Shown here one piece after another: positions 19,111 to 61,022 of a DNA stretch of 64,000 nt. The position numbers and the translations under genes are program-made. The notes beneath the pieces were generated by a model that was not told the origin of the DNA, ran no database searches, and worked only from the letters and a program-made list of their open reading frames with translations. The DNA is from Naegleria gruberi. Lineage: Eukaryota. The stretch lies in NCBI GenBank assembly GCA_000004985.1, contig GG738864.1. One strand, given 5' to 3'. How positions within the stretch are numbered: the stretch's first letter is position 1; each line of letters starts with the position of its first letter.

Positions 19111-19497
19111 CACTCAATAAAGTATATACAAAATAAATTAATTTTTATATTAAGCGTCGTGTATCGTCGATGGTGTGATGTAATATGATGATTTCCAAGT
19201 AAAAACAACAACAATAACAATTTAACGCTCTCTCTGTTGAATCTTTTTGGAAGGTTTTCTCGCCAATCTAATTTTTTTTATTGAATAAAACGTTATATTC
19301 CCTTAAAAGGCGACTGTTGAGAGTGTTGATATTCGTTCATGTTTAAGGCGCCAAAAGAAACAAAGGAAATCATGACCCTTAAATTAGAAGACTACCGAGG
19401 AAACCCTGACACATATTTGTAATTTCGCTCTCTGTTTTAACAGATTTATTAGGAAAGGGTTATTTTGGCATTAGTATGAATGCTTCAGTTGATTCAC

Positions 19498-36407: not shown

Positions 36408-36728
36408 ATATTGAATTGTATTCTGATATGCAGTTTCAACTTCGATATGATCAGAAAATTGGTAAGCAAAATTTTCATCATGTAGAACGTTCAATAAATA
36501 TAGAAGATTGAGCAACCGTTTCAAATTCTTCAACCAAACCTTACTGAACCAACAATCTAACGTTTCGGTCCAAGTGTATATTTTTATGTAAATACCAGAA
36601 ATTATAGACATAAATGACTATGGCCATCATCCCGTCCGATTTGAGAAGTTAAATATTGTCGAGTACTGAGGTTGGAGACAACTTGGGAACCTTTGCTAAT
36701 TGTAAAGTCAAAAAAAATACCCTCACTC

Positions 36729-38768
36729 ATGCCACAAGGGAATGCCATCATTTTTCTTGATTGTAAAATCTCATCCGACTTGCTATCGGGCATGTATCAA
36801 CACTCGAAACGAATACAACTCTACAAGCAGATAATTTTACAATTTTACATGTATAAAATGGATGTGCCACTCTCCGATACTTTGAAAAACGATCGTCAGT
36901 TTATTCTACAAGCACTCCAATACGATTTTATATTCCATAAATATGGAAAGAAATTTGTAGAAGAGTTTTTAAGGAAAGATGAAGAATTTATTATGGAAAT
37001 GATAAGAGTCAATCCAAGGATTATTAGATATTGTCCAAAAAGACCTAAATATTGTTTACAAGCTGTAAAGTATGATCCTCAAATGTTGTTGTATGCGCCA
37101 AAGGAGGTTAAAAGATCAGAATCAATTGTTTGGGAATTATTCAAGAGGGATGCTTCCTGTTTGAGATATGCAAGTCAACGATTGACAAGTGGACCATTTG
37201 CTTTTAAAGTTTTTGAGTACAATGAGAGTGCATTTAGAACATTTTGTAAACATCCATTTACAATTAATTCAATATCTAAAAGGGAGGATTTGTTAAAACT
37301 TGTGTCTATGGGCTCATACTATTCGAAAATTAGTCCTACATTGAGAGAGGATGAGGAGGTTCAATTGGCAGCTCTCAACCATGACGCATATGTTTGGCAA
37401 TTATTGAGAGATGATTTAAAAAATGATAGGAACTTGGCAATGGAATGGGTTAAGAAAAATAGAGAAATTCTTGGATATACGAAATTTATTCACGATTATG
37501 AATTTATGGTGGAGCTGATTGAGGAGAATACTATTTATTTTTGGGATTTCAAAGGAGAAATGAAAGAACAACTTTTCAGAAAGAACAAAAAACTCCTTAT
37601 GACTGCTTTGGAGGATTACAAAATATTGGACTATCATTGGATACCTATTATTTCTACAAGTTGGTATTCCCTTCCTTCATCAATAAGTCAAGATAGAGAA
37701 GTAATCATGTTGTTTTTGAGAAAATTATGTAAAAATGAAAATGGATATAGATACTTTACATTTACCGTTTCTGGAGGAAATATTACAATCAATTGTGACC
37801 AATATTTTAAGGTATGCCTTGAAAATTTCCAAACTGACAGAGATTTCTTCCATTTAAATTTATCTAAAATTGGGTTGAATAGAGTATACGCATATGCTGA
37901 TCAATCAATGAAGAGAGATCCCAAATTCATTGCTTTTGTATTCAATTCATATCCTAACAATAATATCACTTTTGAATATGACAAGAATATAGTGAGAGAA
38001 CTTATTCCGCTTCTCAAGACAAATCCGTCTCAATTATTCACGGATATCAGATCATTGATTTCGGATGACAAGGAGCTATTACTGTTATGCATCAAGAATA
38101 TTAGCCCTTATTGCTTTAATTATGCATCTGAACACTTGAAAACTAATGTGGATTTTATAGAGGAGTGCATGCGAGTTAATAATTCAGTCATAGCAACTGT
38201 TTCCTTGAAATTGGTTAGAATGAATAAGGAATTGGCAATCCTAGCATTCAAAAAGGCAGTAGAAATAGATATAATACTCCCTATTTTAAAAGAATATTTG
38301 GCTGATGATGAATTATTTCAACTGCTATTCCAACCTTATTCAAATATTACTAGCGATCGATTGCTGAAAATATGTGAGGAATTAAGAATTTCTGATAATT
38401 TGAAAAATGATTATGAGCTTGCAAGAAGGATAATGAATAGATCTATCAAGTTCAGTATCATATTCAAAGACGCACCATTCATCAAAGAATTGATAATTGA
38501 AAAACTCATTCAGGGTCCAATCTGCTATTTAGAATTGAACGATTGTTTTAAATTTGATTGGGATTTGTTTAGTACTGTATACAGAAAGGCAGATTACATG
38601 GGTAGAACTAATTTGGTGTATAATAATCAGCACCTCAAGAAAAAAGATGTTTTAGTTAAATTATTAGGGAAAGGAGTGTATATTAGTGATAATGATAATG
38701 GTTTTATTGATAAGAAAATTACAAATGTGGATTTCATGTTGGAAAACTGTTCTCAAATGTTGATTTGA
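36729..38768 (+). CDS. repeat protein (~680 aa) built from tandem ~25-50-aa helical repeats resembling DUF4116
   Basis: Repeats of the form xFILQALQYDxxxLxYAPKEVKRDxExV recur throughout, for example LQAVKYDPQMLLYAPKEVKRSESIVWELFKRDASCLRYASQRL. The track ORF begins at a TTG (36672). The first in-frame ATG is at 36729. Confidence 0.45.
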   Translation: MPQGNAIIFLDCKISSDLLSGMYQHSKRIQLYKQIILQFYMYKMDVPLSDTLKNDRQFILQALQYDFIFHKYGKKFVEEFLRKDEEFIMEMIRVNPRIIRYCPKRPKYCLQAVKYDPQMLLYAPKEVKRSESIVWELFKRDASCLRYASQRLTSGPFAFKVFEYNESAFRTFCKHPFTINSISKREDLLKLVSMGSYYSKISPTLREDEEVQLAALNHDAYVWQLLRDDLKNDRNLAMEWVKKNREILGYTKFIHDYEFMVELIEENTIYFWDFKGEMKEQLFRKNKKLLMTALEDYKILDYHWIPIISTSWYSLPSSISQDREVIMLFLRKLCKNENGYRYFTFTVSGGNITINCDQYFKVCLENFQTDRDFFHLNLSKIGLNRVYAYADQSMKRDPKFIAFVFNSYPNNNITFEYDKNIVRELIPLLKTNPSQLFTDIRSLISDDKELLLLCIKNISPYCFNYASEHLKTNVDFIEECMRVNNSVIATVSLKLVRMNKELAILAFKKAVEIDIILPILKEYLADDELFQLLFQPYSNITSDRLLKICEELRISDNLKNDYELARRIMNRSIKFSIIFKDAPFIKELIIEKLIQGPICYLELNDCFKFDWDLFSTVYRKADYMGRTNLVYNNQHLKKKDVLVKLLGKGVYISDNDNGFIDKKITNVDFMLENCSQMLI

Positions 38769-42795: not shown

Positions 42796-45700
42796 TCAAT
42801 AGTCAAATAAATCATTCAAAGTTTCAAGTATTGACATGATTGGTGGTCGTTTCTCTTCCTCAGCTTTCCAACACTCCTGAATTAATCCACATAGACTGTA
42901 TACTTTGCTAGCTTCCAATGAATCAAAAGTTTGTGGATTATTTCTCTTACACCACTGAAAACATTCTTCCTTAGAATGGAAAGGGATGAGAGGTCTGAGA
43001 TTATCTTGACAAATCTTACTGGTGAGGAAGGGAGTACTTGGGAATTTTCTTTCCTTATCAAGATTTAATCGTTGTAAAGTTCTTGGTTCAGTGTAAGTGT
43101 AGGCATCTTGACATTCGAATAATAATTGCCACATGATAATGCCAAATGCATAAACATCACATGATTTGGCATCTTGAATAGTTCCATTAATCAATTGAGG
43201 GCTCATGAAATTATGTGTACCAATCAAGTGTGTCATTATTGAATTATTCTTATCTGACATTTTGCGTGACAATCCAAAATCACATAATTTACAAATTCCA
43301 TCTTTGGTTAATAAAACATTTCCTGGTTTGAGATCTCTGTGGACAATTGGAGTTGGTAAAGTGTGTAAATACTCAATACCTCTTGCAATACCTAAAAACA
43401 TTTGAATTTTACGATCAAATGTCATTATGACAGTTCCCTTTTCTAACTCATGAATTACATCAACTAGAGATTTGTCCAATCGTTCCATTACTATAAATCC
43501 CTTGTTAGGCATTATTGAAACTCCATAGAAAGATGTAATATTAGGATGTCTCAATTTGACCAGTATTTTGACCTCATTGATAAATTCCTGATCTTGAATG
43601 TCAGAATCCATTTCGAATACTTTTACAGCAACACTAATTCCTTTCCACATACTTTCTATAACCATTCCTTGTCCTCCTTTTCCAAGTCTCTTTCTATTTC
43701 TCAAGTCCAAATCACCAATAGGAATGATAAAATCATTTTGTGGACTAGATTCTGGATCTTGCAGCTCTATTGGTTTGTAATCATCACCAAATAACAATTG
43801 CTTTGATAGAGAATCTGCATCTCCAATAATTTTCTTCTGTTTTCCATATTTTCTGCACAGGAATACCAATAAAGACACCAATAATATCAAAAGTGCTAAA
43901 AAGACAATACTCAAAACGATTGGAACAATTGCTGAAATAACGGAATCATTCTTTTCACAATAATCTCCAGAAGATCCACTTAAACATTTGCAATCATCCA
44001 CGGAATTACACATTCCACGACCACTACATACGTTTGGATCATTCTGTGCTAAGCCATAACACATGGTAAATTGGCATTGGTTTCCTGTATATCTATTCTT
44101 ACTGCATGTACACTTATCAATATCGGTGCAATTTCCTCGACTTTTGGCACCTCCACACGCATCCGGGTTGACCTTTCCATAGCAGGTTGCAGTTTCACAA
44201 TTACTTCCCAAATATTGATCACTATTGCATTTGCAAGAGTTGGATGATTGGCATGTTCCTCTTCCATTACACACGTCCTTATTTGCATTGGTCAATCCAA
44301 AACACACAGGTATATCACATTCCTTTCCAGTAAATCCAGATTGACATTCACATTGATTATATCCTATGCATTTTCCTTTTCCACAAGCATCCCCCTCTGT
44401 TTTTCCATAACAAACAGGCAAACACAATGTGAAATTATCATTCAAAATGTAGCCATTAATTTCACAGTGTGGTGTCAATGTATAAATTGCTGTTCGAGTG
44501 CAATAAATGATTGAGCCAGTAAGTGGGTCGAATTCAATATCTAAGGCATTCTCATTCAGATTTGAAATAGTTTCCACTTCTCTTTCTGATTTGATTAAAC
44601 TAATTTTCCTTCCATATTTGTGAAGGACAATTATTTTGTTATCTAAATTGAATACAGGTGAAAATGGACCCTCCAATCCTGATTCAGCAATTGTTGTAAT
44701 TATTCCATTCTTATTAATTCTTCTAATTCTGTCATTTAACATGTCGCAAAATACTAGATCTCCGAAATCATTAATCAATAGTCCAGTAGGTTTGTTGAGA
44801 GAGGATTTCGTTGCTTGGATGTAGTTCGATCCTCTACCAACATCTCCGTCTCCTGCAAGAGTTGTCAGCATGCCATTTCTGTCAAGTTTTCTAATATTTG
44901 AAAATAAGTCATCTGTGAAATAAACAACATTGAAACTATCCACAACAACAGAATATGGATAAGCAATGCTCAATCTTTCAGTAATATTATCTCTTCCGTA
45001 TCCACCTAAAAATCATTTGATTAGAATCTTTGAGATTCTATGAAAATTTCAACATACCAGAAATGAATGTAATTTCTTTAGTTCTAATTGAATCTTCACC
45101 AGTCATGTTCAATCCTAAAACTCGGTGATTTCTCGAATCTAGAAAATAAAGCATGTCGCCATCCACAAATAAACCTTTAGGGCTGTTCAATTTAATCTTT
45201 GCTGGACTAGTGTCTCTGTTAAATCCAGAAACTCCAACTCCAATTGCTGTTGAAATAAAATGTGAATTCACATTAATTAGTCTAATACGATTATTGAAAG
45301 TATCTGAAACGAAAATTAATTCATTTCCATCGTGATCTGTATAATATTCAGCAAATGTTGGATAGAGAAAGCTGATAAAATTATTAGAAAGACTATGAAA
45401 GAAGCACATGTACTCACCTTGCACTCAGGGAGGAGCCACCATCACCTCCATAACCATCGCTTCTTCCTGCTATTGTTTGAGTATTGGAATTGGCATTGCC
45501 ATTTTGTAAAATTATCTTTCTAATTCTATGATTTGCTAATATAATTAGAATAGTTTGGAAAATTTGAAAACTTACCAGAATCTACAATATACAAATGGGT
45601 AATCTTCTCTGGTTTTTCAACACATAATAAACCATACGGTTGATTGAATGCTGATGCAAGAGGAGCCCCATCAATATATCCTTGATATCCAACACCTGCT

Positions 45701-47577
45701 AATAAGTATCCTCTAGTTTCTTTTAAAGGAAATTCCAAAATACGATGATTGAATGTATCTGAAACATATAGAGTATCTGAATTTGCAGAATATTTAATGT
45801 CAGTAGGAGCATTCATTTGGATTGCACGTCTTGGCTTACCACTATATGGAATAGCTGACCCATCATTGGGAATGGTGAATGTTGGAATTCCAGCAAATGT
45901 ATCAATTATTCCAGTAAGTAACGAAACGTTTCTGATCAATCCATTTCTTGAATCCACAATATACATGACATTTTTCACTATGCATAATCCTTTAGGAGTG
46001 GATAACTGAGCATTAATAGCTAATCCTCCATCACCACTAAATCCAGATTGTCCAGTACCGGCTACAACATAGATTTTCCCCTCTTTGGTAATTTTTCTCA
46101 CCATATTATTTCCTGATTCAGTGAAATAAATATTTCCATCATCTGCTTTGTAAATCGATAAAGGGGTGTCCAGAACTGCATTACTGGCATCCATTCCATC
46201 TTTCTGCTTATTTTTTTTCGAAGAATCAATTAGTACTGTTTTAACTTTCTTCTTGATAACAGCTAAGGATGTGACAGAGGTTTCTGGATCAATAGATGTC
46301 ACGTAAACGCTCTCATCTTCTCCTAAATCGAGCTCTGTATAAATTACACTTTGAGATGAGGAAATTTCAGTACTACTACCCTCCAAAGAGGATACTCTTC
46401 CTGTTGTGAGCGAAATATTTCGAATAATATTACCATCAGTCACGTACAAATTCCTCAATAGTGGAGATAAGGTAATTTTCTCCATTCCCGAAAATCCATA
46501 TTTTAACATGGGTATTCCGTCTAAACTCAATCCATCCTCTGAGAAGATTTTCATCAGATTTCCATTAATAATTGTTAAAATTGCATCGTGATAGGCAATG
46601 AATACATTACTTCCAATATACATATCAGTTACTTCTCCTAGTTCAACTTTGAGGGCAGGTCCATAACTGTACTCTGTTGAATCCTTTCCAGAACCAACAA
46701 TTGCCTTACTTGTTCCATTTCTATTAATTTCGAATATTCTCTGGTAGCAAAAGGCAAATAATTGATCTTGATAAATAGTGGAGGTTCTTAAAATTGTTTT
46801 TGAATTGATAAATTCTTCTTGGTTATTACCAGCTATGGTTACATTCATTGAAAATAGATATTTTGGTTGATTGCCAATTTCATCAAGAATAATGTAGAGA
46901 GAATCATCCTTCAACACGACGAATATTTCATTAGAATCCAAATTAATCGACATGGTAGCTATTGTCATATTAAAAGCAGCAACAGGTTCCGTCCTCAACT
47001 CATTCGTTGTAACATTAAAAGCCATAATCCTATTCGAATCGGCAAAATACAGCATTCCTCTATTAATGACTGCTCTGAGTGGTGGATTGGTCAATTGAGT
47101 TGGTTTCACAAGTGTAGTTGCCTTCCCTGACTTGGTATCAAATTTCCTAATGGCAGGTATTCCTTTATCAATGAAATACACTTGATCATAGGCAATTCCA
47201 TCATCATGAATACTTTTCGAAATGAAAATCGATGAAGGATTTGAAATTAAAGTACCATTCCAACCACCCTGTTTGCTATTAAATGGTTTTCCATACTCTC
47301 CAATCACAGTTTCCACATCACCACTCGACATGTTCACTCGCATGATGCTATTTTTCGAATGTGAAAAGTAGAAACAATTTGGATGAGAAACGGATGGAAA
47401 TACAGAGAGAATATTTCCGAGTTGAATATCTTGGGATTGAGCCAAGATGTTTTCTGCATAATTTACAGGAAGGGACAATTGGGATTGAACGTGATGATGA
47501 TGATAGAAACAAAGAAGAAGAAATGAAACTAAACAAAACGTGAATGATGTGAATAGTTGCATTTTTTTAAATATCAT
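42796..47577 (-). CDS. receptor kinase A: signal peptide - ~25-30 NHL beta-propeller repeats - 4-5 EGF-like Cys modules - TM - Ser/Thr (TKL-like) kinase; ~1547 aa, 4 exons (47577..45576, 45535..45418, 45371..45058, 45005..42796)
   Basis: Introns are 40, 46 and 52 nt with GTAAGT, GTGAGT and GTATGT donors. A 46-nt intron was chosen over a 25-nt alternative because it conserves the NHL spacing GDGGxxxxAxFxxPxF. The NHL consensus recurs, for example GFSGDGGLAINAQLSTPKGL...YIVDSRNGLIRNV. The EGF-like region is CNGRGTCQSSNSCKCNSDQYLGSNCETATCYG. The TM helix is IVPIVLSIVFLALLILLVSLLVFLC. Kinase motifs are LGKGGQGMV, VAVKV, HRDLKPGNVLL and DFGLS, with APE replaced by SPQ. Confidence 0.8.
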
Positions 47578-48421: not shown

Positions 48422-48493
48422 TCCCGTGTAGTCCAATGGCTAGGATACCTGGCTTTCACCCAGGAGGTCCGGGTTCAATTCCCGGCATGGGAG
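48422..48493 (+). tRNA. tRNA-Glu (anticodon UUC), 72 nt, no intron
   Basis: The cloverleaf folds by hand. The acceptor TCCCGTG pairs with CATGGGA (one G-U). The D stem is GTCC/GGAT. The anticodon stem CCTGG/CCAGG carries the loop CT-TTC-AC. The variable loop is 4 nt. The T stem CCGGG/CCCGG has the loop TTCAATT. The A box is TAGTCCAATGG and the B box GGTTCAATTCC. Overall it resembles eukaryotic tRNA-Glu-TTC. Confidence 0.9.
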
Positions 48494-48498
48494 GATAA

Positions 48499-48540
48499 TT
48501 TTCCATTTACGATTTAATGTTTATTTCTCACGTTTTTTTA
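48499..48540 (+). terminator. RNA polymerase III terminator T-runs downstream of tRNA-Glu (TTTT at ~48499-48502; T7 at ~48534-48540)
   Basis: The first oligo-T run lies 5-6 nt past the tRNA 3' end. A second longer run lies ~40 nt downstream. Confidence 0.4.
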
Positions 48541-48566: not shown

Positions 48567-49511
48567 TCATGGCTTCTTACTTGTTTTTTTCTTAATGCAA
48601 ATCTTCTTCTTAATTGACTTGCAACACTTCTTCTTTCCACCAACTAATTTGAATTTCTTACAAATCTTCTTTCCCTTTGAACGTTTCAAGCATTTCTTAT
48701 AATACTTCTTCTTGATACATCTTGGTGGAATGACAATTGACTTTGCACAATACTTCTTCTTTTGATATTTGACACATTTGGAAATAGTCTTCTTGTGCTT
48801 ACAGAACTTGATTGTCTTATGCTTGGCACAGAAGAATTTCTTCTTAATGAGACAACATTTCTTGATGGATTTTCTCTCCTTACAATATTTAACCTTCTTA
48901 TACTTGGCACATTTCTTTGCCCATGCAACAATCTTGCACTTTTTAACATATCTACATTTGGCGACCTTCTTTTTGTAGGAATCAATAGTGTACTTGTCGC
49001 AAATCTTCCTCTTTTCACACTTCTTGATTGGAACCTTCTTGAATTTCTTACAGACCTTCTTAACTCCCTTCTTGAAACACTTGTTGATAATCTTGTGTTT
49101 GGCACAGAATTTCTTGAAACTCTTCTTGATGCAAATCTTTCTAGTTCCATAAGAATCACAAACTTTCCAATACTTCTTCTTGGCACATCCAACAATCTTG
49201 TACGCGTGCAAGACACACTTCTTTGTTGGCTTGCTGTACTTGTCACATTTGGAATATTTCTTATGTTTGAGACATTTGCCAGCACCGACGATGGCATATT
49301 TATCACAGACTTTCTTTTGACCGACGAGTTTGTGTTTCAAACACTTCTTAATCCACTTGTGCTTTAAGCATTTTCTCTTACAATGCTTTGGTTTGTGATA
49401 CTTGTCAACTATGGCGACTGGAGGTTTAGTTCGATAGGTGTCACTTGCTTGAACTGAGAGGATTGCAAGTAAGAGAAGAATTGCAAATGAAAAGATTAGA
49501 TTTGCTTTCAT
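48567..49511 (-). CDS. secreted, extremely Lys/Cys-rich repetitive protein (314 aa; signal peptide MKANLIFSFAILLLLAILSVQA; ~35% Lys, ~12% Cys in CxK / KKC / CxKHK periodic motifs)
   Basis: ATG-initiated ORF. Its composition is far outside this window's norm. The long antisense ORFs over it (48686..49306, 48762..49367) are low-complexity shadows. Confidence 0.6.
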   Translation of the reverse strand: MKANLIFSFAILLLLAILSVQASDTYRTKPPVAIVDKYHKPKHCKRKCLKHKWIKKCLKHKLVGQKKVCDKYAIVGAGKCLKHKKYSKCDKYSKPTKKCVLHAYKIVGCAKKKYWKVCDSYGTRKICIKKSFKKFCAKHKIINKCFKKGVKKVCKKFKKVPIKKCEKRKICDKYTIDSYKKKVAKCRYVKKCKIVAWAKKCAKYKKVKYCKERKSIKKCCLIKKKFFCAKHKTIKFCKHKKTISKCVKYQKKKYCAKSIVIPPRCIKKKYYKKCLKRSKGKKICKKFKLVGGKKKCCKSIKKKICIKKKTSKKP

Positions 49512-51159: not shown

Positions 51160-54100
51160 TTATTTGAAATAATTGAGGGAAAGAAGTTGAGATGCATTTG
51201 GTCTTTGTTTTGAATCTTTTTCTAACATTTGCAATACAATTTCAATTAAATCATTCGAATATTCATTATCATTGGATTGTTTCATTTGTTTTGTTAGAAT
51301 GTTGATTGCGTTTTGTGATTGAATTCCCATCAACAAGTTGCTGATTGATGTTTCCTTGTCTTTTGTCATGATTTGATAAATTGAAACACCCAAAGAGAAA
51401 ATATCAGTATTAAAGGAATAGGAACTGCCAAGGGCAATTTCTGGACTCATATCTGAATGGTTTAGTTTCGTCTAAATAAAAAAATAAACTTACATAAAGG
51501 AGTTCCAGCATAGGATTGACCTTTTGATTCTTGAAACTTTTTAGCCAATCCAAAATCTGCCAAAACAATTTCAATTTTTTCACTTTCCAACTTTTTTATA
51601 AATATATTTGTTGGCTTAATATCTCTATTTTTCCAAAATTGATTTTACAAATTCCTAATATATACTTACCTATGAATAATATGCATCTCCTCATGAACAA
51701 GTTTCAATGCACTCAACATTTGTTTCAATATTTGCTTCAATAATTTCTCACTCACTACTTCGTCGTGTTTCAATAAATTTGTCAAATCTCCACATTCATA
51801 ATAATCCATGTCAATAATCAATAAATTGTCGTTGGTGATGAAATAATCATTCACCTTGATGATATTTGGATGATTGATATGGCTCAATTGGGATGCCTCT
51901 TTCATGATGGTATTCAAATCAGTGAATGATTCAAATCTGATAAGTTTGATTGCTTTCAGTTTGTTTCCATGTTTAATATCTGAAACTTTGAAAACACTTC
52001 CAAATGCTCCTTGTCCAATTCTTACAATATTCGAATATCTTGAGAAGGGATTTTCTTCAGAACTACTGGACGAGCCATTTGATGAAGAAATAATCATTGA
52101 GCTGGTGGAAGGAAATTCATTATCCGAAAGTTCAATATTGTTAGTATTGACCTGAACAATTTCCAATTTCTTATTCTTTCTTTTTCTTGAATTGAAGCAC
52201 ATTACCATAATGACTACTATTACAATTATTGTAAACAAAATTAATAAAGATCCAACAATAGGAATAACAATTGCAACTATTAATACTGATGAGTTGGTCG
52301 ATAATTGTCTTGCAATCTTAGTTATTTCACAATACTTTCCTTCAAAATCATCTTTACATTGACACGTGTCAAAATCCGAACAAATTCCATTTCCATTGCA
52401 AACACTTGAATTAGTTGCCAAAGTTCCATTACAATTCAATAGCATATCACACGTATTATTCCAAGTATTGAAAACATAATTTTCCTCACATTGTGGAATA
52501 ATCTTTCGAATATAAGTTGTTGCATCAATGAAGAAAATTTCACCTGAACTTTCGTCAAATTCAACTTGTTTTGTGAAGGAAGTAAATATTGTATCGGAAC
52601 CCTTTCCATCTCCATTGAATGCAGGAGAGGATGACCTCTTTCCAGCCAAGTCAATCAATAATCCACTCTTTTTCTCGTACATTCGAATAAGATTAGGAGC
52701 GCCTTTACTAGTTACTGTTCCATCTAACAATATAATATCACCATTCTTCTTGACAAAGATAGCAGAGGGGTTATCAATCGAAGATTCTAGTGCTGGTAAT
52801 CTGTCTCCTGAATATCCTTGAGAGAAAGTTCCCACCAAAGTTCTCAAATAAAATTGATTATTCGAAATCTTTTCAATTCTTCTAATGGTTTCCATTGTAC
52901 TTAAATAAAGATTTCCATCAATATAAAAAAGTGAAGTAATTAATCCAGGATACGTTTGAAAATTAACAACTATTCCGTCAGTAGATATTGGATTTGAGGA
53001 ATTGAACGTAAATTCCAGATTTAGTAGTTGAGTTTCCAAGCTGTATCTGTAAATATGCAAGATGTCTGATATTACTAAATCACCATTTGATTCATCTATT
53101 GTAAACCCTGACATTGCATTTGGTGGACAAGGTGAAAGTGTTCCCTTGACATTTGGTACAAAAGCTCCACAAGCACTTCCAATCACTCTTTCATAATTCA
53201 TAGTTTCTGGATCAAGTCTGATAATTCTACATGTTTCCTTAATGTATATCTTGTTATCAAATTTGGAAAGTTTACCAAAAGTTTTTAAACCAAGTATTGA
53301 CATGGTGATTGTCAAATAAGGAAAATCAAAAACTGGAATAGAAGGCAATAAAAACCAGCTAAGTGAAATTGACTTGCCTGTTTTTTCGTCAAACTTTTTT
53401 AAAACTCGATAATTATCAATGAAATAGTTTATCTTTTTAGCCGAATCTCTCATCAACAAAACAGGACTCAATGTTTTAGCTAATGGATTGAGTCCAGCTA
53501 TGGTTTTGATTGTTCCATTTGAAATTTCACTGATATAATTGGAGCAGGAGATGTAAATTCTTGAATCTTCTCTGTTCACTTGAATTGCATAACTTTGTAT
53601 TTGATTGTAATCTAATTTCAGTTTACAAAAATTACTTACGTTGCTGAAGTTTCAATAGGAATGTCATCACCATTGAATCCAGATGTATAAATATTAGTAT
53701 TTGAAATGTTAACCGCATCAAGTCCAACAATTTTCTTTAATGAAAGTGAATCCCATGAATATTCATAAACTTGTGAATAAATATAGAAATAGAAAATTCT
53801 GCCAAATGTAGTAAATCCATTAAATGATATATCTGATATTTTTCTAATACTAGTTGTATAATTTCCATTCTTATAATCAATATATTCATAAATACTGTTA
53901 CCAGAATAATATAACAGAGAATTAGTTCCATTTATGGTTAAATCTGGAATAACACGTATCAAACCTAACCCAGGGATATCAATTTTCAGGATATACAATA
54001 GATTGGATTTGTGAAAAACTGAAAAGGTTTGAACGTAAGTTTGATAATAAATTGTTGAATTCTCATAGGAATCCCCTGTTGCAGTAATGGCACTCGAATA

Positions 54101-56212: not shown

Positions 56213-59200
56213 TTAATTTTTGAGTGAATTTTTCAATAGAGAAAGAATTTCATTAAAGTGGTGAATAGAAGGTCTTTGAGAAGGATTAGTTTCCCATCCC
56301 TTCTTAATTAAATCAAGTAATTGGTAGATTACTGTACTTTCTTGGAGTGAATAGGCCTTTTTCATTTCACACCAAGATTGACAATCTTCCAAAGTTTCGA
56401 ATGGAATGAGTGGACGATGTCCAGATGCAATCTTTGGAAGCAGTTGGCTTAATAAATTTTGATATTGAACTGGTTGTTCAAGATTCAACTTGTTTAATAT
56501 CAATGGATTCGTATAATAATAAGGATCCATAATTTCAAATAGAATTTGCCACATGATTATTGACAAACTATAAATGTCAACAGCAGTTAACAATTGCCTT
56601 TCAATTTCACCAAATGATTCAGGACTATTAATCAAAATCATTAGAAAGATAATAAATAGTAATACTCTACCTCATATAATAAAAAGTTCCAATTTGATTT
56701 GTAATTTGCGTGTTGTTTTGCTTATTCAAGAGTCTGGACAAACCAAAATCACACAACTTGCTCACTCCATGAACATCTTGCAAAATATTGGCAGGTTTCA
56801 AATCTCTGTGCACGATCGTTGGTTTCAGATTGTGTAAATATTCGATTCCTTTGCAGATATCAAGCATAATATCCATCTTTTGACTCAATGACAATTTCAT
56901 TCTATTAGATTGGAGTTCAGCAATAATATTTTCAAGACTTCTCTCCATTTTCTCCATTACAATATATCTCTTGGTTGGAGTAGAAGAAACTCCAAAGAAG
57001 GAAATAATATTTGGATGTCTCAATCTGGAAAGAACTGTTGCTTCAGACCTAAAATCATTTTCATCAATATTCATATTATTCAAATCGAAAACCTTAATAG
57101 CTACTTCAGTTCCAATCCATTGAGATTGATAAACTGATCCATAGCCACCAGAACCAAGTTTCTTCATTTTACCCAAATCCAACTTGTTAATAGAAATGAA
57201 GAATGAATCTGCTTCATCCTTCTTCTTTCCATCATTGTCAATTTCCAGTTCAAGCATGTTATCAGTAACAAATTGATCAGTTTTAATGATCTTTCTCTGA
57301 ACATAATACTTTCTGAATAGACCAATAATAATGAAAAGTGAACCACCAATGCAAAAGACAAGAACTGCAACACCTATTAAAGCACCAATAAGAGCCCACA
57401 GTTCATCAGAATGTTGACATTGTTCACCTGAATAACCAAATTGACAGGTGCATTGATTTGGAAGTGAACAACTGCCTCTTCCATTACAAACGTCTGCCTC
57501 TTTTTCATTCCTTCCAAAACATGTCATTAATTCACATTCTAAACCAGTATATCCAGTATTACAAGAACATTGATTCTTGTCAAGGCAACTTCCTCTTACT
57601 GAACCACCACAAGCCCCGTCAAGAATCTTTCTGAAACAAATTGGCGTTTGACACATTGAGGAAGTATATCCTTCTTTACAAATGCAAGTATTTGGAGCTG
57701 TGCAGTTACCTCTTCCATTTGTGCAAACACTGGAACTATTAGAAGCTTCTCCATAACAAACTGGTATTTCACATTCGAAACCTGTATATCGAGACGAGTC
57801 ATAACATTGACACAAATCTGGTGAAAGACATTCTCCATTATTATTGCAAACATTTCCACTCAACAGTTTGATCTTTCCATAACAAATTGGAAGGCAAGTA
57901 TCATTCTTTGAATAGACATGACCATTCTCACAGAAAGCTTCCAATTTTCTAACATTATTCAATGAAGAATCGATAAAGAATAATACATTTCCTTCATTGT
58001 TAATTGTCATGGAGGTGGGTGAAATACTGAAAGGTTTTGATTTGGTTTGAGATGGAGCAGATCCATCCCCCGCAATTACATCAAATGGATGACTAGCAAT
58101 GGTTGAAATCTTTCTAATAAAATTGTTTTTGCTATCTGAAATAATTGTTTGTCCCTTATAAGAAACAACTGAGGAAGGTGAATTTAAGGAACTTGTTTTT
58201 GGATCAGAGGTTTGAGAGAAGCCAGTGAACCCATTACCTGCTACAGTTTCCAATAATCCTTTCTTGTTAATTTTTCTCACCTTACTAATTCCAGATTCGA
58301 CAAAGATTAATTCACCCTCTTCATTGACATACAATCCTTTAGGTGCTGCAATATCTGATGAAATGGCCAATCTTCCATCCTCGGAGATTCCAAACAATCC
58401 AGTTCCTGCAATAGTTGAAATTACTCCATTTGTGGAAATCTTTCTAATTCTATTCTGAGCTGTTTCACTAACGTACATTTCACCACTCGAGGAGAAGGCA
58501 ACATACGAAGCCTCAACTTGTGAATAAAGAGCCAAGTTATTGTCGCCAATTCCTCCAGCAAATTTCTTTACCCACTTTCCTTCAATTTGACTTTCCAATA
58601 TTCTATTGTTACCTTTTCAAATTTCTTAATAAAATAATTCTAAATACTTTTAACTTACCTGAATCAGCAATAAATAAAATAGATTTGGAATGGTCAAAGA
58701 AGGTACATTGTGGATTATTCAATTTGACATTAGAACCTGTAATGTTTCCTTCGAAATAATTATAACCTGCAAAACCATTACCAACAACTGAATAAGTGGA
58801 CGAAAGGACAGCAAATCTAATTCTATGAGATTGGGAATCAGTAATGTGGATATCAGTTAAAGCAGATCCAACTGAGTTTACACTCGAAACACAAGTTGGT
58901 GTATTGTAAATTGCATTTGGTAAATTAAAATCATCTGTGTAACCCTTAGCTCCACTACCACTATGCGTAGTTACAGTTACTGGATCATTAAAAAGTGGTT
59001 GTAGATCAACATATCTAATACGATTATTTCCAGAGTCTGCAAAATAGATAATCCAATCTGAATTGAGAGAGAATCCCATAGGTGTGTCCAAATGAGTGGA
59101 GAGAGCTGGCCCATCACCATTGAATCCCTTTACACCACTTCCAGCAATGGTTTGAATAATACCAGTACTAAGAGTAATTTGTCTTAATCTATTATTGAAA

Positions 59201-61022
59201 GTATCAGAAAAAAACAATTCATGATAATAATTGACTTGGAGATAGGTTGGAGAATTCAATTGAGCAGTAAGGGCATTAATATTGTCTCCATTGTAACCTT
59301 GTATTCCATTTCCTGCAATGGTTTGGATGATTCCAGATGTTATGTTGACAGCTCTAATTCTATGATTATTGGTATCGGCAACATAGAGCACATTATTATC
59401 CAAATAGATTCCAGTTGGAGAATTAAGCTTGGCCAATGTTGCTAAACCACCATCACCATCAAATCCAGAAGTTCCACATCCAGCAACACCAATTACCACA
59501 CCACTAGTTCTGTGAACCTTAATAATTCTATGATTTCCAGAATCAGAAATGTATACATAACTAGTTGTTGCAAAAATTCCCTTTGGAGAGTTTAGAACTA
59601 GTTGATCTTTGTGTTGCTGTAAAAGCCTGGATGCTGTTATTGGACCTGCAAACATTGTTGAAATGCTTCCATTATATTTGTGAATGAAACCCTTTGATGA
59701 GACAACATATAGATCACTGTTATTGGTTGAGACTGAAACTGGATTGAGAGCAAAAGGTTGATAGGTATCAATGAAATTCAACTCCTTCTCTGGGGCTATC
59801 ATTTCAAGTTTGTTGTTTGCTGAGATTTTTCGTACAGCTCCATAGTCAGAAACGTAAAGGTTTCCACTTTGCTGATCCAGAACTATTCCAGTTGGAGAAT
59901 GAAGTGTTGTCTCACTAGAATTGTATCCATCAATAAATGGACCAATAACAGCTCCATCATAATTAATAAACAAGATCAATGATATTGTTTCATCAATCAT
60001 TGAAATTTTTCTAATTGTTTTCAGTCCAAAATCGCTAACGTACATGAAACCATTATGAATACCAAAATACTGATTTATGGCAATGAATTCAGCATCACTT
60101 GCCTTTCCACCATCTCCAAAAGTGGTTGCTTCCAAACTAGCCTGTTTACCATTTCCAACAAATCTTGAAATATTTCCATTTCTCAAATCCATTTTCCTTA
60201 TTGTCGAAGAAAGCTCTTTAGTATCCACGTATAGCAAGTAATTATCCACTCTCAACAGTCCTGGATGAGTAAAATCTAAATTTTCTACCAACAGCTCTTC
60301 ACCATTATCAATGGTCCATCTACAAAGTGATTTCACATCAATATCTTTAAATTTGAAATAATAAACGACACCATCATCATCCACATAGACATCCAAAACA
60401 TTTGATGATGTTGAAATGTAGGTGCTGACAATACCATTCTCTACTTTTCTAATTGCATCATTATACCCATCTGCAATGTACATAATTCCATCTTTATCAA
60501 TGAACATTGAATAGATCCTAGTGTGTATGAAATGTGTTAGATAAAGAACAAATAATTGAACACATACCCATCAAAGAGAGCTTCTCTTGCATCTCCTCCA
60601 TCACCACTATATCCTGATTCATCTTTGATTCCGACAATTACTGTATAATTAGCCTCAACTTTTTCATTGATAATACTTATGGAAGTGGAATCGGAACAAT
60701 AAACAACACCACTTTTAACATTCACGTATAATGAACAAATGAATGGCTTCTTGAGGAGTGTCATCTTTTTTGATACTGCATCTATTTTAGCAATGAAACT
60801 ATCATCCACGGTATCACATTCAAAATAAATGTGTCCTTCATTAGTAACATGGACAGCTCCTAAACCACTGAATACATTCTGTTTGTGAGGTTTGGTTACA
60901 TCACTCAGTGAGTATTTTGGTGTTGTTTGACCAAAGGATTCCCTTAGTAGGAATTGTGTGAAAAAGCAACAAGCTAACAACACTAAGGCAATGACGGATT
61001 GGAAAGGAAGGTGTTGCTTCAT
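56213..61022 (-). CDS. receptor kinase C (paralog of A/B): signal peptide - NHL propeller repeats - EGF-like modules - TM - Ser/Thr kinase; ~1555 aa, 4 exons (61022..60568, 60517..58659, 58612..56671, 56624..56213)
   Basis: The signal peptide is MKQHLPFQSVIALVLLACCFF. Introns are 50, 46 and 46 nt with GTATGT, GTAAGT and GTAGAG donors. The exon junctions ...EALFDG|IYSMFIDKDG and ...IADSG|GNNRILES fall inside NHL repeats, and ...GTFYYM|SPESFG inside the kinase. NHL consensus examples are YVADTNNHRIRAV, FFSDTFNNRLRQI and ADSGNNRIRYV. EGF-like modules include CNNNGECLSPDLCQCYDSSRYTGFECEIPVCYG. The TM helix is LIGALIGVAVLVFCIGGSLFIIIGLF. Kinase motifs are LGSGGYGSVY, VAIKV, HRDLKPANIL, DFGLS and YMSPE. 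Confidence 0.8.

What the first reader, a model, noticed from the sequence alone, without database searches (positions are those of the whole stretch)
48567..49511. Secreted 314-aa protein made almost entirely of Lys and Cys periodic motifs
After a canonical signal peptide, the protein is about 35% Lys and 12% Cys arranged as recurring CxKHK / KKC / KYxKC units, with Cys every ~7-10 residues. It has no acidic residues to speak of and no recognisable domain. This is far from the window's normal composition. It suggests a polycationic disulfide-rich secreted product, perhaps antimicrobial or defensin-like, an adhesive, or a metal or polyanion binder. It sits convergently next to a tRNA-Glu gene.
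Basis: seen in the sequence. Interest (0 to 1): 0.6.

Follow-up and report, generated by a model that had tools for sequence, protein, structure and literature searches.

The report
Lysine-coated disulfide-ladder protein of Naegleria
This is a real gene of the amoeba Naegleria for a secreted, extremely lysine-rich protein whose 31 cysteines are spaced as mirror images in its two halves, which suggests one long hairpin rod zipped by about 14 disulfide bridges; it belongs to an undescribed family and its role, possibly in the cyst wall, is untested.

Summary
Window 48567-49511 (-) is an intact 314-aa ORF with a signal-peptide-like N-terminus. It has 34% Lys, 9.9% Cys (not 12%) and net charge about +105. 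The commonest Cys spacing is 9 residues.

It is not a low-complexity artefact:
- The DNA has no tandem repeat.
- Homologues exist in Naegleria gruberi (4 paralogues), N. fowleri, N. lovaniensis, Willaertia magna and environmental contigs.
- Cys is 87-95% conserved, against 31-63% for other non-Lys residues.
- Codon position 3 is far more diverged than positions 1 and 2.

Pfam, PDB sequence and PDB fold searches found nothing.

New findings:
- The Cys spacings of the N-half mirror those of the C-half about a 14-residue Cys-free loop. No permutation did as well (0 of 5000) in six members; two more gave p=0.0006.
- AlphaFold gives near-continuous beta structure (pLDDT 77) with mirrored breaks. 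This fits one giant hairpin with about 14 disulfide rungs.
- All 7 Asp residues sit in D-x-Y motifs, four of them in the N-terminal tail and tip loop.

My best inference is a stiff polycationic extracellular cross-linker, most likely of the cyst wall (function untested, about 0.35-0.4). An antimicrobial or adhesive role remains open. Defensin, thionin and metallothionein membership is not supported.

The parts
48567..49511 (-). Complete single-exon CDS (314 aa plus TGA) of the Lys/Cys-rich secreted protein
   Evidence: ORF listing. Homologues in Naegleria and Willaertia. Codon-position identity of 0.75/0.72/0.47 against environmental homologue L004.
49446..49511 (-). Signal peptide, aa 1-22 (MKANLIFSFAILLLLAILSVQA); predicted cleavage after VQA
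   Evidence: Read from the sequence. Equivalent hydrophobic N-termini occur in the full-length homologues. Modelled as a helix over residues 2-22. Not run through a dedicated predictor.
49383..49445 (-). Cys-free N-terminal tail, aa 23-43 (SDTYRTKPPVAIVDKYHKPKH), carrying two D-x-Y motifs
   Evidence: pLDDT below 50. Asp24 and Tyr26 are invariant in alignment A1.
48999..49382 (-). N-arm of the ladder, aa 44-171. It holds 15 Cys, mostly 9 residues apart, of which C48-C171 form the 14 proposed rungs
   Evidence: Cys gap analysis. Mirror test. Predicted beta strands E46-63, E66-85, E87-92 and E96-171.
48957..48998 (-). Tip loop, aa 172-185 (DKYTIDSYKKKVAK). This is the only 14-residue Cys-free stretch inside the ladder and carries two D-x-Y motifs; it is the proposed hairpin turn
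   Evidence: It is the centre of the mirror symmetry. It is the only long non-strand, low-pLDDT segment (177-181) between the two 76-residue strands.
48597..48956 (-). C-arm of the ladder, aa 186-305. It holds 16 Cys at 14 sites (two CC doublets) that mirror the N-arm
   Evidence: Proposed rungs: C171-C186, C165-C192, C154-C201, C145-C210, C136-C219, C127-C228, C118-C237, C109-C246, C99-C255, C89-C265, C80-C274, C69-C284, C57-C296, C48-C305. Strands E186-261 through E305-310.
48567..48596 (-). C-terminal tail IKKKTSKKP plus stop. Ser312 stands where relatives have the last ladder Cys
   Evidence: P0002 (N. gruberi NEG-M) reads ...KRKTCKKPSKP, and L004 reads ...KKKICRRK.
48520..48525 (-). AATAAA polyadenylation-type signal beginning 42 nt after the stop codon
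   Evidence: Read from the sequence. The same GAGAAAATAAA context follows the stop codon in L004. Function inferred, not tested.

Best explanation
The gene is real and belongs to an undescribed protein family. All named members come from heterolobosean amoebae (Naegleria and Willaertia).

Proposed mechanism:
1. The product enters the secretory pathway through an N-terminal signal peptide.
2. The mature 292-aa chain folds back on itself at a Cys-free loop (residues 172-185).
3. The two roughly 125-residue halves run antiparallel as a long two-stranded beta ribbon.
4. About 14 Cys-Cys rungs, one every 9 residues, lock the ribbon together. If fully extended, the rod would be tens of nanometres long (about 40 nm).
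5. The rod surface is covered with lysines (net charge about +105).
6. D-x-Y motifs mark both ends: the N-terminal tail at one end and the tip loop at the other. Relatives also carry them in C-terminal tails.

Proposed function: an extracellular structural cross-linker. The cationic rod would bind anionic or polysaccharide matrix material. Spare cysteines (31 is an odd number) and the Tyr/Lys end motifs would give covalent or end-wise links. The most likely location is the cyst wall.

Status of each step:
- Shown: real gene under purifying selection; family membership; Cys periodicity; mirror symmetry; D-x-Y enrichment; absence of known domains.
- Inferred: secretion; disulfide pairing; hairpin shape.
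- Conjecture by analogy: wall or cross-linker function.
For: Real gene under selection:
- Homologues have E-values from 1e-17 to 1e-125.
- Cys is conserved at 87-95%, against 31-63% for other non-Lys residues.
- Against L004, dN is 0.30 with dS saturated, and codon-position identity is 0.75/0.72/0.47.
- TRF finds no DNA tandem repeat.

Fold-back ladder:
- The N-arm gaps 9,12,11,9,10,10,9,9,9,9,9,11,6 match the reversed C-arm gaps 9,12,10,9,10,9,9,9,9,9,9,9,6 about a 15-residue centre gap. No permutation out of 5000 did as well.
- The same symmetry holds in P0004, P0005, P0025, P0026 and L004 (0 of 5000 each) and in P0013 and P0011 (p=0.0006).
- Irregular long gaps occur at the same rung index in both arms: 17/18, 15/21, 17/21, 17/24 and 13/13.
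- Rung number differs between members (13 to 17) but stays equal in the two arms.
- Mirror cost is far lower than direct-repeat cost: 6 vs 34, 19 vs 41 and 22 vs 48.

Structure prediction:
- AlphaFold2 on 10 sequences gives pLDDT 77.2 with blocks above 90.
- It predicts two 76-residue strands (96-171 and 186-261) flanking the loop.
- Strand breaks at 64-65, 86 and 93-95 are mirrored by breaks at 291-292, 271 and 262-264.
- The nearest, non-significant Foldseek neighbours are very long beta hairpins.

End motifs:
- D-x-Y accounts for 7 of 7 Asp (expected 0.4; 0 of 100,000 shuffles).
- Relatives show 5/6 to 12/17, and 8/8 in L004.
- N. fowleri P0004 ends in (IDSYKP)x4.

Analogy to wall proteins: Acanthamoeba cyst-wall lectins are lineage-specific, have signal peptides and Cys-rich domains, and carry Thr/Lys/Cys-rich or Thr/Lys/His-rich basic segments (PMC6541295).
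Against: - There is no expression, localisation or binding data for any family member. Literature searches on all identifiers returned nothing, and no Naegleria cyst-wall proteome was found.
- The hairpin rests on a shallow-alignment AlphaFold model (pTM 0.29). Its coordinates could not be inspected.
- The first AlphaFold run, with 4 sequences, gave pLDDT of only 41.7.
- Mirror symmetry fits an antiparallel homodimer equally well.
- A 9-residue (odd) pitch would put every second rung at a hydrogen-bonded pair. From general knowledge, cross-strand disulfides are disfavoured at such sites. The real ribbon must therefore be bulged or irregular.
- Paralogue P0003 does not pass the mirror test (p=0.37), and P0027 passes only weakly (p=0.03).
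- The window protein itself is poor in Pro and lacks the tandem YKP tail seen in N. fowleri.
Confidence: 0.4

Rival explanations
1. Antimicrobial or prey-killing polycation. The protein would be released into phagosomes or the medium. It would act like a giant version of the cationic disulfide-stapled beta-hairpin peptides (protegrin, tachyplesin, theta-defensin), binding and disrupting anionic bacterial envelopes. It might first be cut into smaller pieces.
For: - It has a signal peptide, extreme positive charge and conserved Cys.
- The predicted single antiparallel hairpin with cross-strand Cys matches part of the published definition of beta-hairpin antimicrobial peptides: cationic, a single antiparallel pair, disulfide-cyclised (PMC13001179).
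- Naegleria feeds on bacteria (general knowledge).
Against: - The class is defined as short, typically 16-21 residues with 1-4 disulfides. This protein is 292 aa with about 14.
- The facing-residue table shows no clear hydrophobic face. About 42% of residues are basic and about 30% hydrophobic.
- The Cys scaffold, the rung count symmetry and the end motifs are conserved from Naegleria to Willaertia. Orthologue identities are 54-63% between Naegleria species. From general knowledge, this fits a structural scaffold better than a fast-evolving effector.
- The Tyr-Lys-Pro tail repeats have no obvious role in killing.
Confidence: 0.2
2. Extracellular adhesive or coating protein of the trophozoite or cyst. 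It would act like a secreted poly-lysine that sticks the cell, or prey, to negatively charged surfaces such as mineral, glass or bacteria. Functional analogues are Lys/Tyr/Cys-rich mussel foot proteins and flatworm adhesives.
For: - Composition of 34% Lys, 5-12% Tyr and 10% Cys across the family.
- D-x-Y-K-P end motifs.
- An odd Cys count, allowing intermolecular links.
- The analogy to marine adhesives comes from general knowledge, not from a test.
Against: No data on localisation or adhesion exist. There is no homology to any adhesive family. This reading overlaps with the wall or matrix reading and cannot be separated from it by sequence.
Confidence: 0.15
3. Same family and same secretion, but the mirror-symmetric Cys pattern reflects antiparallel intermolecular pairing rather than an intramolecular hairpin. 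Chains would form disulfide-linked homodimers or staggered polymers, that is, fibres or sheets.
For: A palindromic Cys spacing satisfies antiparallel chain-to-chain pairing exactly as well as a fold-back. The odd Cys number and the non-conserved CC doublets leave spare thiols.
Against: - The AlphaFold monomer model folds back at residues 172-185 with high local confidence.
- The symmetry centre always coincides with a Cys-free segment that varies in length (14 to 43 residues) and is rich in turn-type motifs, as expected for a loop.
- Intramolecular pairing is kinetically simpler (inference).
Confidence: 0.2
4. Not a gene. The ORF would be a chance product of an AAR/TGY-rich low-complexity stretch, or a metallothionein-like metal binder mis-read as secreted.
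For: Two long shadow ORFs overlap it: 48686-49306 (-) and 48762-49367 (+). This shows that the composition keeps several frames open.
Against: - Only the Lys/Cys frame has homologues, with conserved Cys and signal peptide, in at least four species.
- Third-codon-position divergence shows purifying selection in this frame.
- There is no DNA tandem repeat.
- Cys is 9.9%, with only two CC pairs, one Cx3C and no CxC or CxxC clusters. Pfam gives no hit.
Confidence: 0.02

Closest known systems
Cationic beta-hairpin antimicrobial peptides (protegrins, tachyplesins, gomesin, arenicins, theta-defensins)
   Same: They are cationic and form a single pair of antiparallel strands held by cross-strand disulfides (a 'cystine ladder'). 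Definition from PMC13001179. The predicted architecture here is that, scaled up.
   Different: Those peptides have 16-21 residues and 1-4 disulfides; this protein has 292 residues and about 14. Rungs here are 9 residues apart, not 2-4. The protein is Lys-rich rather than Arg-rich and has no clear amphipathic face. There is no sequence relationship, and no activity has been shown.
Lineage-specific Cys-rich cyst-wall and oocyst-wall proteins of protists (Acanthamoeba Leo and Jonah, Entamoeba Jacob, Giardia CWPs, Cryptosporidium COWPs)
   Same: They have signal peptides and repeated Cys-containing modules. They are restricted to one lineage and lack wider homologues. Some have basic Lys-rich low-complexity segments, such as the Thr/Lys/Cys-rich domain of Jonah and the Thr/Lys/His spacer of Leo (PMC6541295). 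Several paralogues occur per genome.
   Different: Those proteins have compact 6-Cys or 8-Cys lectin domains, or LRR domains, separated by spacers. None has a continuous mirror-symmetric ladder. No homology was found. Wall localisation and encystation-specific expression are shown for them and unknown here.
Tyr-Lys-Pro repeat structural proteins (plant proline-rich proteins and extensins, mussel foot protein 1); from general knowledge
   Same: Short tandem motifs combine Tyr, Lys and Pro: IDSYKP x4 in N. fowleri P0004, VDTY.P in P0016 and DVYK in P0019. The proteins are highly basic and extracellular.
   Different: In this family the motifs are confined to the tails and loops, and the bulk of the protein is the Cys ladder. 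The window protein has only 2.5% Pro. Hydroxylation, DOPA or dityrosine chemistry is untested.
Midkine and pleiotrophin (Lys- and Cys-rich secreted heparin-binding proteins); from general knowledge
   Same: They are secreted, basic, rich in Lys and Cys, all-beta, and bind polyanions.
   Different: They consist of two small domains with 5 disulfides in about 120-135 aa. No profile or fold similarity was found. They are animal-specific.
Metallothioneins, defensins and thionins
   Same: They are small, Cys-rich and often Lys-rich.
   Different: Metallothioneins are cytosolic, with about 30% Cys in CxC and CxxC clusters (general knowledge). Defensins and thionins are 30-50 aa with 6-8 Cys. None is matched by sequence or fold.

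Membership tests
Unnamed Naegleria/Willaertia 'mirror-ladder' family (NAEGRDRAFT_76199, NAEGRDRAFT_67458, NAEGRDRAFT_66117, FDP41_004030, C9374_009239, ABK040_005866) | Significant full-length sequence similarity to the other members | tested here: met
   E-values of 9e-81 to 7e-17 with the single sequence. The profile gave 21 hits in 1.84 billion representatives, 15 of them at E<=1e-10. Sources were named.
Unnamed Naegleria/Willaertia 'mirror-ladder' family | [quoted passage not shown] | tested here: met
   For the window protein the mean mirrored gap difference is 0.31 residues, and no permutation out of 5000 did as well. Of the nine other full-length members tested, seven pass at p<=0.0006, one at p=0.03 and one fails.
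Unnamed Naegleria/Willaertia 'mirror-ladder' family | Asp almost exclusively in D-x-Y motifs (Naegleria members) | tested here: met
   7/7 in the window protein. Also 7/8, 5/6, 10/13, 11/19, 12/17 and 8/8 in P0001, P0003, P0004, P0005, P0025 and L004. Expected counts are 0.2-1.5. The motif is absent from the distant members P0011 and P0013.
Beta-hairpin antimicrobial peptides (definition in PMC13001179) | Short polypeptide (about 16-21 residues in the families described there) | tested here: not met
   The mature chain is 292 aa.
Beta-hairpin antimicrobial peptides | Cationic, single antiparallel strand pair, cyclised by intramolecular disulfides | tested here: inconclusive
   The cationic criterion is met. 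The single hairpin is supported only by AlphaFold (pLDDT 77, pTM 0.29) and by Cys mirror symmetry. Disulfides have not been determined.
Beta-hairpin antimicrobial peptides | Experimentally shown antimicrobial activity | not testable with these tools
   No data exist for any family member.
Defensins, thionins and other catalogued Cys-rich antimicrobial domains | Match to the family profile or fold | tested here: not met
Metallothioneins | Very high Cys content arranged in CxC, CxxC or CC clusters, and cytosolic (no signal peptide) | tested here: not met
   Cys is 9.9% and the gaps are mostly 9 residues. There are only two CC pairs, one Cx3C and no CxC or CxxC. A signal-peptide-like N-terminus is present.
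Protist cyst-wall Cys-rich lectins (Leo, Jonah, Jacob, CWP, COWP) | Homology to one of these families | tested here: not met
   No Pfam or PDB match. Leo is reported as unique to Acanthamoeba.
Protist cyst-wall Cys-rich lectins | Encystation-specific expression, presence in purified walls, and binding to the wall polysaccharide | not testable with these tools
   No Naegleria cyst-wall proteome or encystation dataset listing these genes was found.
Midkine/pleiotrophin | Match to the family's Pfam domains or solved structures | tested here: not met
   No hits.

The most novel reading that the evidence does not exclude
This would be a previously undescribed protein architecture and material. A single polypeptide would form one giant two-stranded beta ribbon of about 125 residues per arm. 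About 14 mirror-paired disulfide rungs at a 9-residue pitch would zip it together. The result would be a lysine-coated rod, about 40 nm long if fully extended, with reactive D-x-Y(K)P ends. Naegleria, including the pathogen N. fowleri, would use such rods as a main structural cross-linker of the cyst wall. Standard tryptic proteomics would probably not see this component, because at 36% Lys the peptides would be too short.
Probability: 0.25. Interest if true: 0.8.

Novelty: categorically new. Interest (0 to 1): 0.6.

Why it matters
- **Cyst wall biology.** No proteome of the Naegleria cyst wall was found in the searched literature. Cysts underlie the environmental persistence of the brain-eating amoeba N. 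fowleri, which has a family member (FDP41_004030). A secreted, abundant, lineage-specific wall component would be a candidate diagnostic or disinfection target.
- **Practical point.** At 36% Lys the protein would yield tryptic peptides too short to detect. The N. gruberi reference gene model also appears to be a chimera lacking the first 186 residues. The family may therefore have been overlooked.
- **If it is a prey-killing polycation instead.** It would then extend the beta-hairpin antimicrobial class by more than ten-fold in size.

Tried and rejected
- **First AlphaFold run.** With only 4 sequences it gave pLDDT 41.7. I did not use it.
- **First fold-back scoring.** A strict DP with 1-residue tolerance, then a fixed-end mirror cost, gave mixed results. 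Terminal Cys are missing in some members and mirrored long gaps differ by several residues. I replaced both with a mirror cost that allows up to 2 terminal sites to be trimmed, applied identically to the permutations.
- **Same-rung loss.** I tried to show that P0004 lacks both partners of the same homologous rung as in the window protein. I gave this up because alignment of the repeated units is ambiguous: A1 and A2 place the insertions differently. Only the geometric statement (mirrored long gaps) is claimed.
- **Self-BLAST for internal duplication.** It returned only the identity hit.
- **Poly(A)-track avoidance.** I tested this as an explanation for the AAG preference and it was not significant. 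The AAG bias remains unexplained.
- **Genomic context.** No syntenic or informative neighbours were found around N. fowleri, N. lovaniensis or environmental relatives.
- **Lookups that failed.** N. gruberi loci could not be fetched. The afdb50 fold library was unavailable.
- **Literature.** There were no hits on any accession. No Naegleria cyst-wall or encystation dataset lists the family.
- **Rejected identities.** Histone-like or nuclear protein was rejected because the signal peptide and about 30 Cys are conserved. Metallothionein, defensin, thionin and midkine were rejected because no profile or fold match was found.
Full report
**1. What is in the sequence**

Window 48567-49511 (-) is an uninterrupted ORF from ATG to TGA encoding 314 aa. 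Its composition:
- Lys 34.1% (36.3% of the mature chain).
- Cys 9.9%, that is 31 residues.
- Only 7 Asp and 2 Glu.
- pI about 10.2 and net charge about +105.

Twenty-five other long ORFs in the window average Lys 6.9%, Cys 2.1% and Asp+Glu 10.8%.

After residue 44, almost every Cys closes a 9-residue unit (x-K-x-K-x-[IV]-K-K-C). Fourteen of 30 Cys-Cys gaps are exactly 9 and four are 10. Cys autocorrelation at lag 9 is 0.46. None of 100,000 shuffles of the mature chain reached 14 gaps of 9; the maximum was 9.

The N-terminus MKANLIFSFAILLLLAILSVQA|SD has the charged, hydrophobic and small-residue layout of a signal peptide. The equivalent segment is present in the full-length relatives. No dedicated predictor was available, so secretion is inferred.

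An AATAAA lies at 48520-48525 (-), starting 42 nt after the stop. tRNA-Glu(UUC) lies at 48422-48493 (+), convergent.

**2. The window's origin**

The window has 34% GC and is packed with long ORFs. These encode eukaryotic proteins: EGF/NHL receptor kinases, leishmanolysin, a bicarbonate transporter and an RGS protein.

The C-terminal 128 aa of the target ORF are 94.5% identical to N. gruberi NEG-M NAEGRDRAFT_76199. The window therefore comes from N. gruberi or a very close relative, but not from the NEG-M reference sequence itself.

**3. Real gene, not a low-complexity artefact**

- TRF finds no tandem repeat in the DNA. The periodicity is maintained at the protein level.
- The single-sequence search found four relatives.
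- An exhaustive profile search of 1.84 billion representatives found 21 relatives, 15 of them at E<=1e-10. A second indexed search added three more.
- Named sources are N. gruberi (four paralogues), N. fowleri (FDP41_004030), N. lovaniensis (C9374_009239) and Willaertia magna (ABK040_005866). The rest are environmental contigs.
- In pairwise alignments, 87-95% of Cys are conserved, against 39-85% of Lys and 31-63% of other residues.
- A full-length environmental homologue (L004, 326 aa, 62% identical) keeps 30 of 31 Cys. Nucleotide identity is 0.75/0.72/0.47 at codon positions 1/2/3, with dN=0.30 and dS saturated.

The two overlapping shadow ORFs have no such support.

**4. No known family**

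- Pfam gave nothing at E<=10 for the window protein and five of the six relatives scanned; the sixth (P0011) had only two sub-threshold chance hits.
- The profile search against all PDB sequences gave no hit at E<=10.
- No paper in the searchable library mentions any of the accessions.

**5. New structural observation**

With a 4-sequence alignment, AlphaFold2 was uninformative (pLDDT 41.7). With 10 sequences, pLDDT rose to 77.2, with long blocks above 90. The model shows:
- The chain is almost entirely beta.
- Two uninterrupted 76-residue strands (96-171 and 186-261) flank a low-confidence loop at 172-185.
- The smaller strand breaks are mirrored about that loop: 64-65 with 291-292, 86 with 271, and 93-95 with 262-264.

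The Cys spacing supports this independently of the model. Reading outwards from the 15-residue centre gap, the N-arm gaps are 6,11,9,9,9,9,9,10,10,9,11,12,9. The C-arm gaps are 6,9,9,9,9,9,9,9,10,9,10,12,9. The mean difference is 0.31 residues, and no permutation out of 5000 did as well.

The same mirror symmetry holds elsewhere:
- P0004, P0005, P0025, P0026 and L004: 0 of 5000 permutations each.
- P0013 and P0011: p=0.0006.
- P0027: weakly (p=0.03).
- P0003: not significant (p=0.37).

The most telling detail is that irregular gaps sit at the same rung index in both arms: 17/18 in P0004, 15/21, 17/21 and 17/24 in the P0005 group, and 13/13 and 12/12 in P0013. Members with different numbers of units (13 to 17 rungs) still keep equal numbers in the two arms.

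A direct-repeat arrangement fits much worse: cost 34 vs 6, 41 vs 19 and 48 vs 22. Tandem duplication would give direct symmetry, not mirror symmetry, so the pattern points to a structural constraint.

The simplest reading is a chain that folds back at residues 172-185, with these rungs: C171-C186, C165-C192, C154-C201, C145-C210, C136-C219, C127-C228, C118-C237, C109-C246, C99-C255, C89-C265, C80-C274, C69-C284, C57-C296 and C48-C305. The two 12-residue segments that face each other both contain the L-V-G motif (CLKHKLVGQKKVC and CKKFKLVGGKKKC).

Three Cys are left over: C44 and one Cys of each CC doublet. C44's expected partner is Ser312 here, whereas the NEG-M orthologue and L004 have Cys at that position.

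Caveats:
- I could not inspect the model coordinates.
- pTM is 0.29.
- An antiparallel homodimer would satisfy the same symmetry.
- From general knowledge, an odd 9-residue pitch places alternate rungs at hydrogen-bonded pairs, where cross-strand disulfides are disfavoured. The real ribbon is probably bulged.

**6. Second new observation**

All 7 Asp in the window protein lie in D-x-Y motifs (DTY, DKY x4, DSY x2). The expected count is 0.4, and none of 100,000 shuffles reached 7.

Relatives show the same bias: 7/8, 5/6, 10/13, 11/19 and 12/17, and 8/8 in L004. The motifs cluster in the Cys-free parts:
- the N-terminal tail;
- the tip loop;
- C-terminal tails of relatives, for example (IDSYKP)x4 in N. 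fowleri, VDTY..P in P0016 and DVYK in P0019;
- the mirrored long gaps of the P0005 group, for example PDPY opposite VDGYVPPDNYVPKP.

In a hairpin these positions lie at the two ends of the rod and in paired bulges.

**7. Charge is tunable; the scaffold is not**

Net charge ranges from +106 (window protein) through +60 to +90 (other Naegleria members) to about +30 in distant environmental members. These distant members keep the Cys ladder but replace many Lys with Glu, Thr or Gln.

The window protein belongs to a hyper-basic subgroup. That subgroup was seen only in N. gruberi-like sequences and environmental contigs.

**8. Function**

Nothing here measures function. The features are:
- a signal peptide;
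- a covalently braced elongated scaffold;
- a uniformly cationic surface without position-specific Lys conservation;
- spare thiols;
- Tyr/Lys(/Pro) end motifs;
- several paralogues per genome;
- ordinary evolutionary rates (54-63% identity between Naegleria species).

I consider an extracellular structural or cross-linking role most likely, with the cyst wall as the obvious site. The nearest functional analogues are the lineage-specific Cys-rich cyst-wall lectins of Acanthamoeba and Entamoeba. Some of those carry Thr/Lys/Cys-rich or Thr/Lys/His-rich basic segments (PMC6541295). Confidence is about 0.35-0.4.

An antimicrobial role is the main rival, at about 0.2. The predicted architecture is a more than ten-fold enlargement of the cationic, disulfide-cyclised single hairpin that defines beta-hairpin antimicrobial peptides. 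It fails the 'short' criterion and shows no evident amphipathicity. An adhesive role (about 0.15) cannot be separated from the wall role by sequence.

**9. Novelty and verdict**

The family exists in databases only as 'predicted protein' or 'hypothetical protein'. It has no Pfam model, no structure and no literature. The inferred architecture has no counterpart in the PDB.

I rate it categorically new at the level of family and architecture. The architecture is a prediction and the function is conjecture. Interest is 0.6. It would rise to about 0.8 if the ladder and the wall role were confirmed.

Noticed in passing
window 48422-48525: tRNA-Glu(UUC) (48422-48493, +) has a T-run at 48499-48502. 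That run lies only about 20 nt from the AATAAA (48520-48525, -) of the convergent Lys/Cys gene. The 3' ends of a Pol III gene and a Pol II gene must therefore abut or overlap within a few bases.
   Followed up: partly
P0002 (NAEGRDRAFT_76199) versus window 48570-48953: The N. gruberi NEG-M reference model for the orthologue looks chimeric. Its first roughly 300 aa carry SAM and PB1 domains and have no counterpart in the window. Only its last 128 aa match this gene, at 94.5% identity. The signal peptide and N-arm are missing from the reference proteome.
   Followed up: partly
window 48567-48596: This allele has Ser312 (AGT) where NEG-M and L004 have the last ladder Cys. It also stops 9 codons earlier than NEG-M (…KKP* versus …KKPSKPIIKPSL). 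This leaves C44 without a mirror partner and makes the Cys count odd.
   Followed up: partly
window 48686-49306 (-) and 48762-49367 (+): Two long overlapping ORFs (206 aa, Arg/Ser-rich; 201 aa, Leu/Phe-rich) lie in other frames of the same DNA. All tblastn matches of the family proteins lie in the Lys/Cys frame, so these look like by-products of the AAG/TGT-rich composition.
   Followed up: partly
window 48567-49511: Lys codons are 70% AAG (75 of 107), against 45% AAG in 25 other ORFs of the window. A test for poly(A)-track avoidance was not significant, so the bias is unexplained. High expression is one possibility.
   Followed up: partly
window 42796-44973, 45526-47577, 51666-53579, 56667-58598, 58609-60507: The gene sits inside a cluster of paralogous secreted or receptor-like genes. 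They combine NHL repeats, teneurin-type EGF repeats and protein kinase domains. Some kinase ORFs appear truncated, perhaps by introns. The NHL protein at 45526-47577 has an HHHH run just after its signal peptide.
   Followed up: no
window 3701-5785, 6974-14569, 17119-19113, 36672-38768: Other genes noted: an HCO3- transporter homologue, a 2531-aa protein with a C-terminal RGS domain, a leishmanolysin (gp63, M8 peptidase) homologue and a DUF4116-repeat protein.
   Followed up: no
L002 4825-7053 (P0024; also P0011): A distant environmental family member (742 aa, JGI sample 3300002220) carries an extra N-terminal half of about 375 aa. It is built from a different Cys-rich repeat, roughly 35 aa long (CP..C.AGKK…C….C). 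This half has no Pfam match. The host organism is unidentified.
   Followed up: no
L004 1-1078: The 1078-bp environmental contig holds just the complete homologous ORF, with 17 nt upstream and 80 nt downstream including an AATAAA. It looks like a transcript-sized assembly and may hint at expression in nature. The sample type could not be checked.
   Followed up: no
L001 8001-9343: The N. fowleri family member spans 1343 bp for 379 aa and no single ORF covers it, so it has introns. The window gene and L004 are intronless.
   Followed up: partly
P0017 (539 aa, ENA contig): The profile also hit a protein with about 25 tandem copies of an 11-residue unit (CDRHKLIGAGH) fused to an unrelated C-terminal region. 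The unit resembles the CDKYAIVGAGKC unit of this family. It may be a mispredicted gene or an independent expansion.
   Followed up: no
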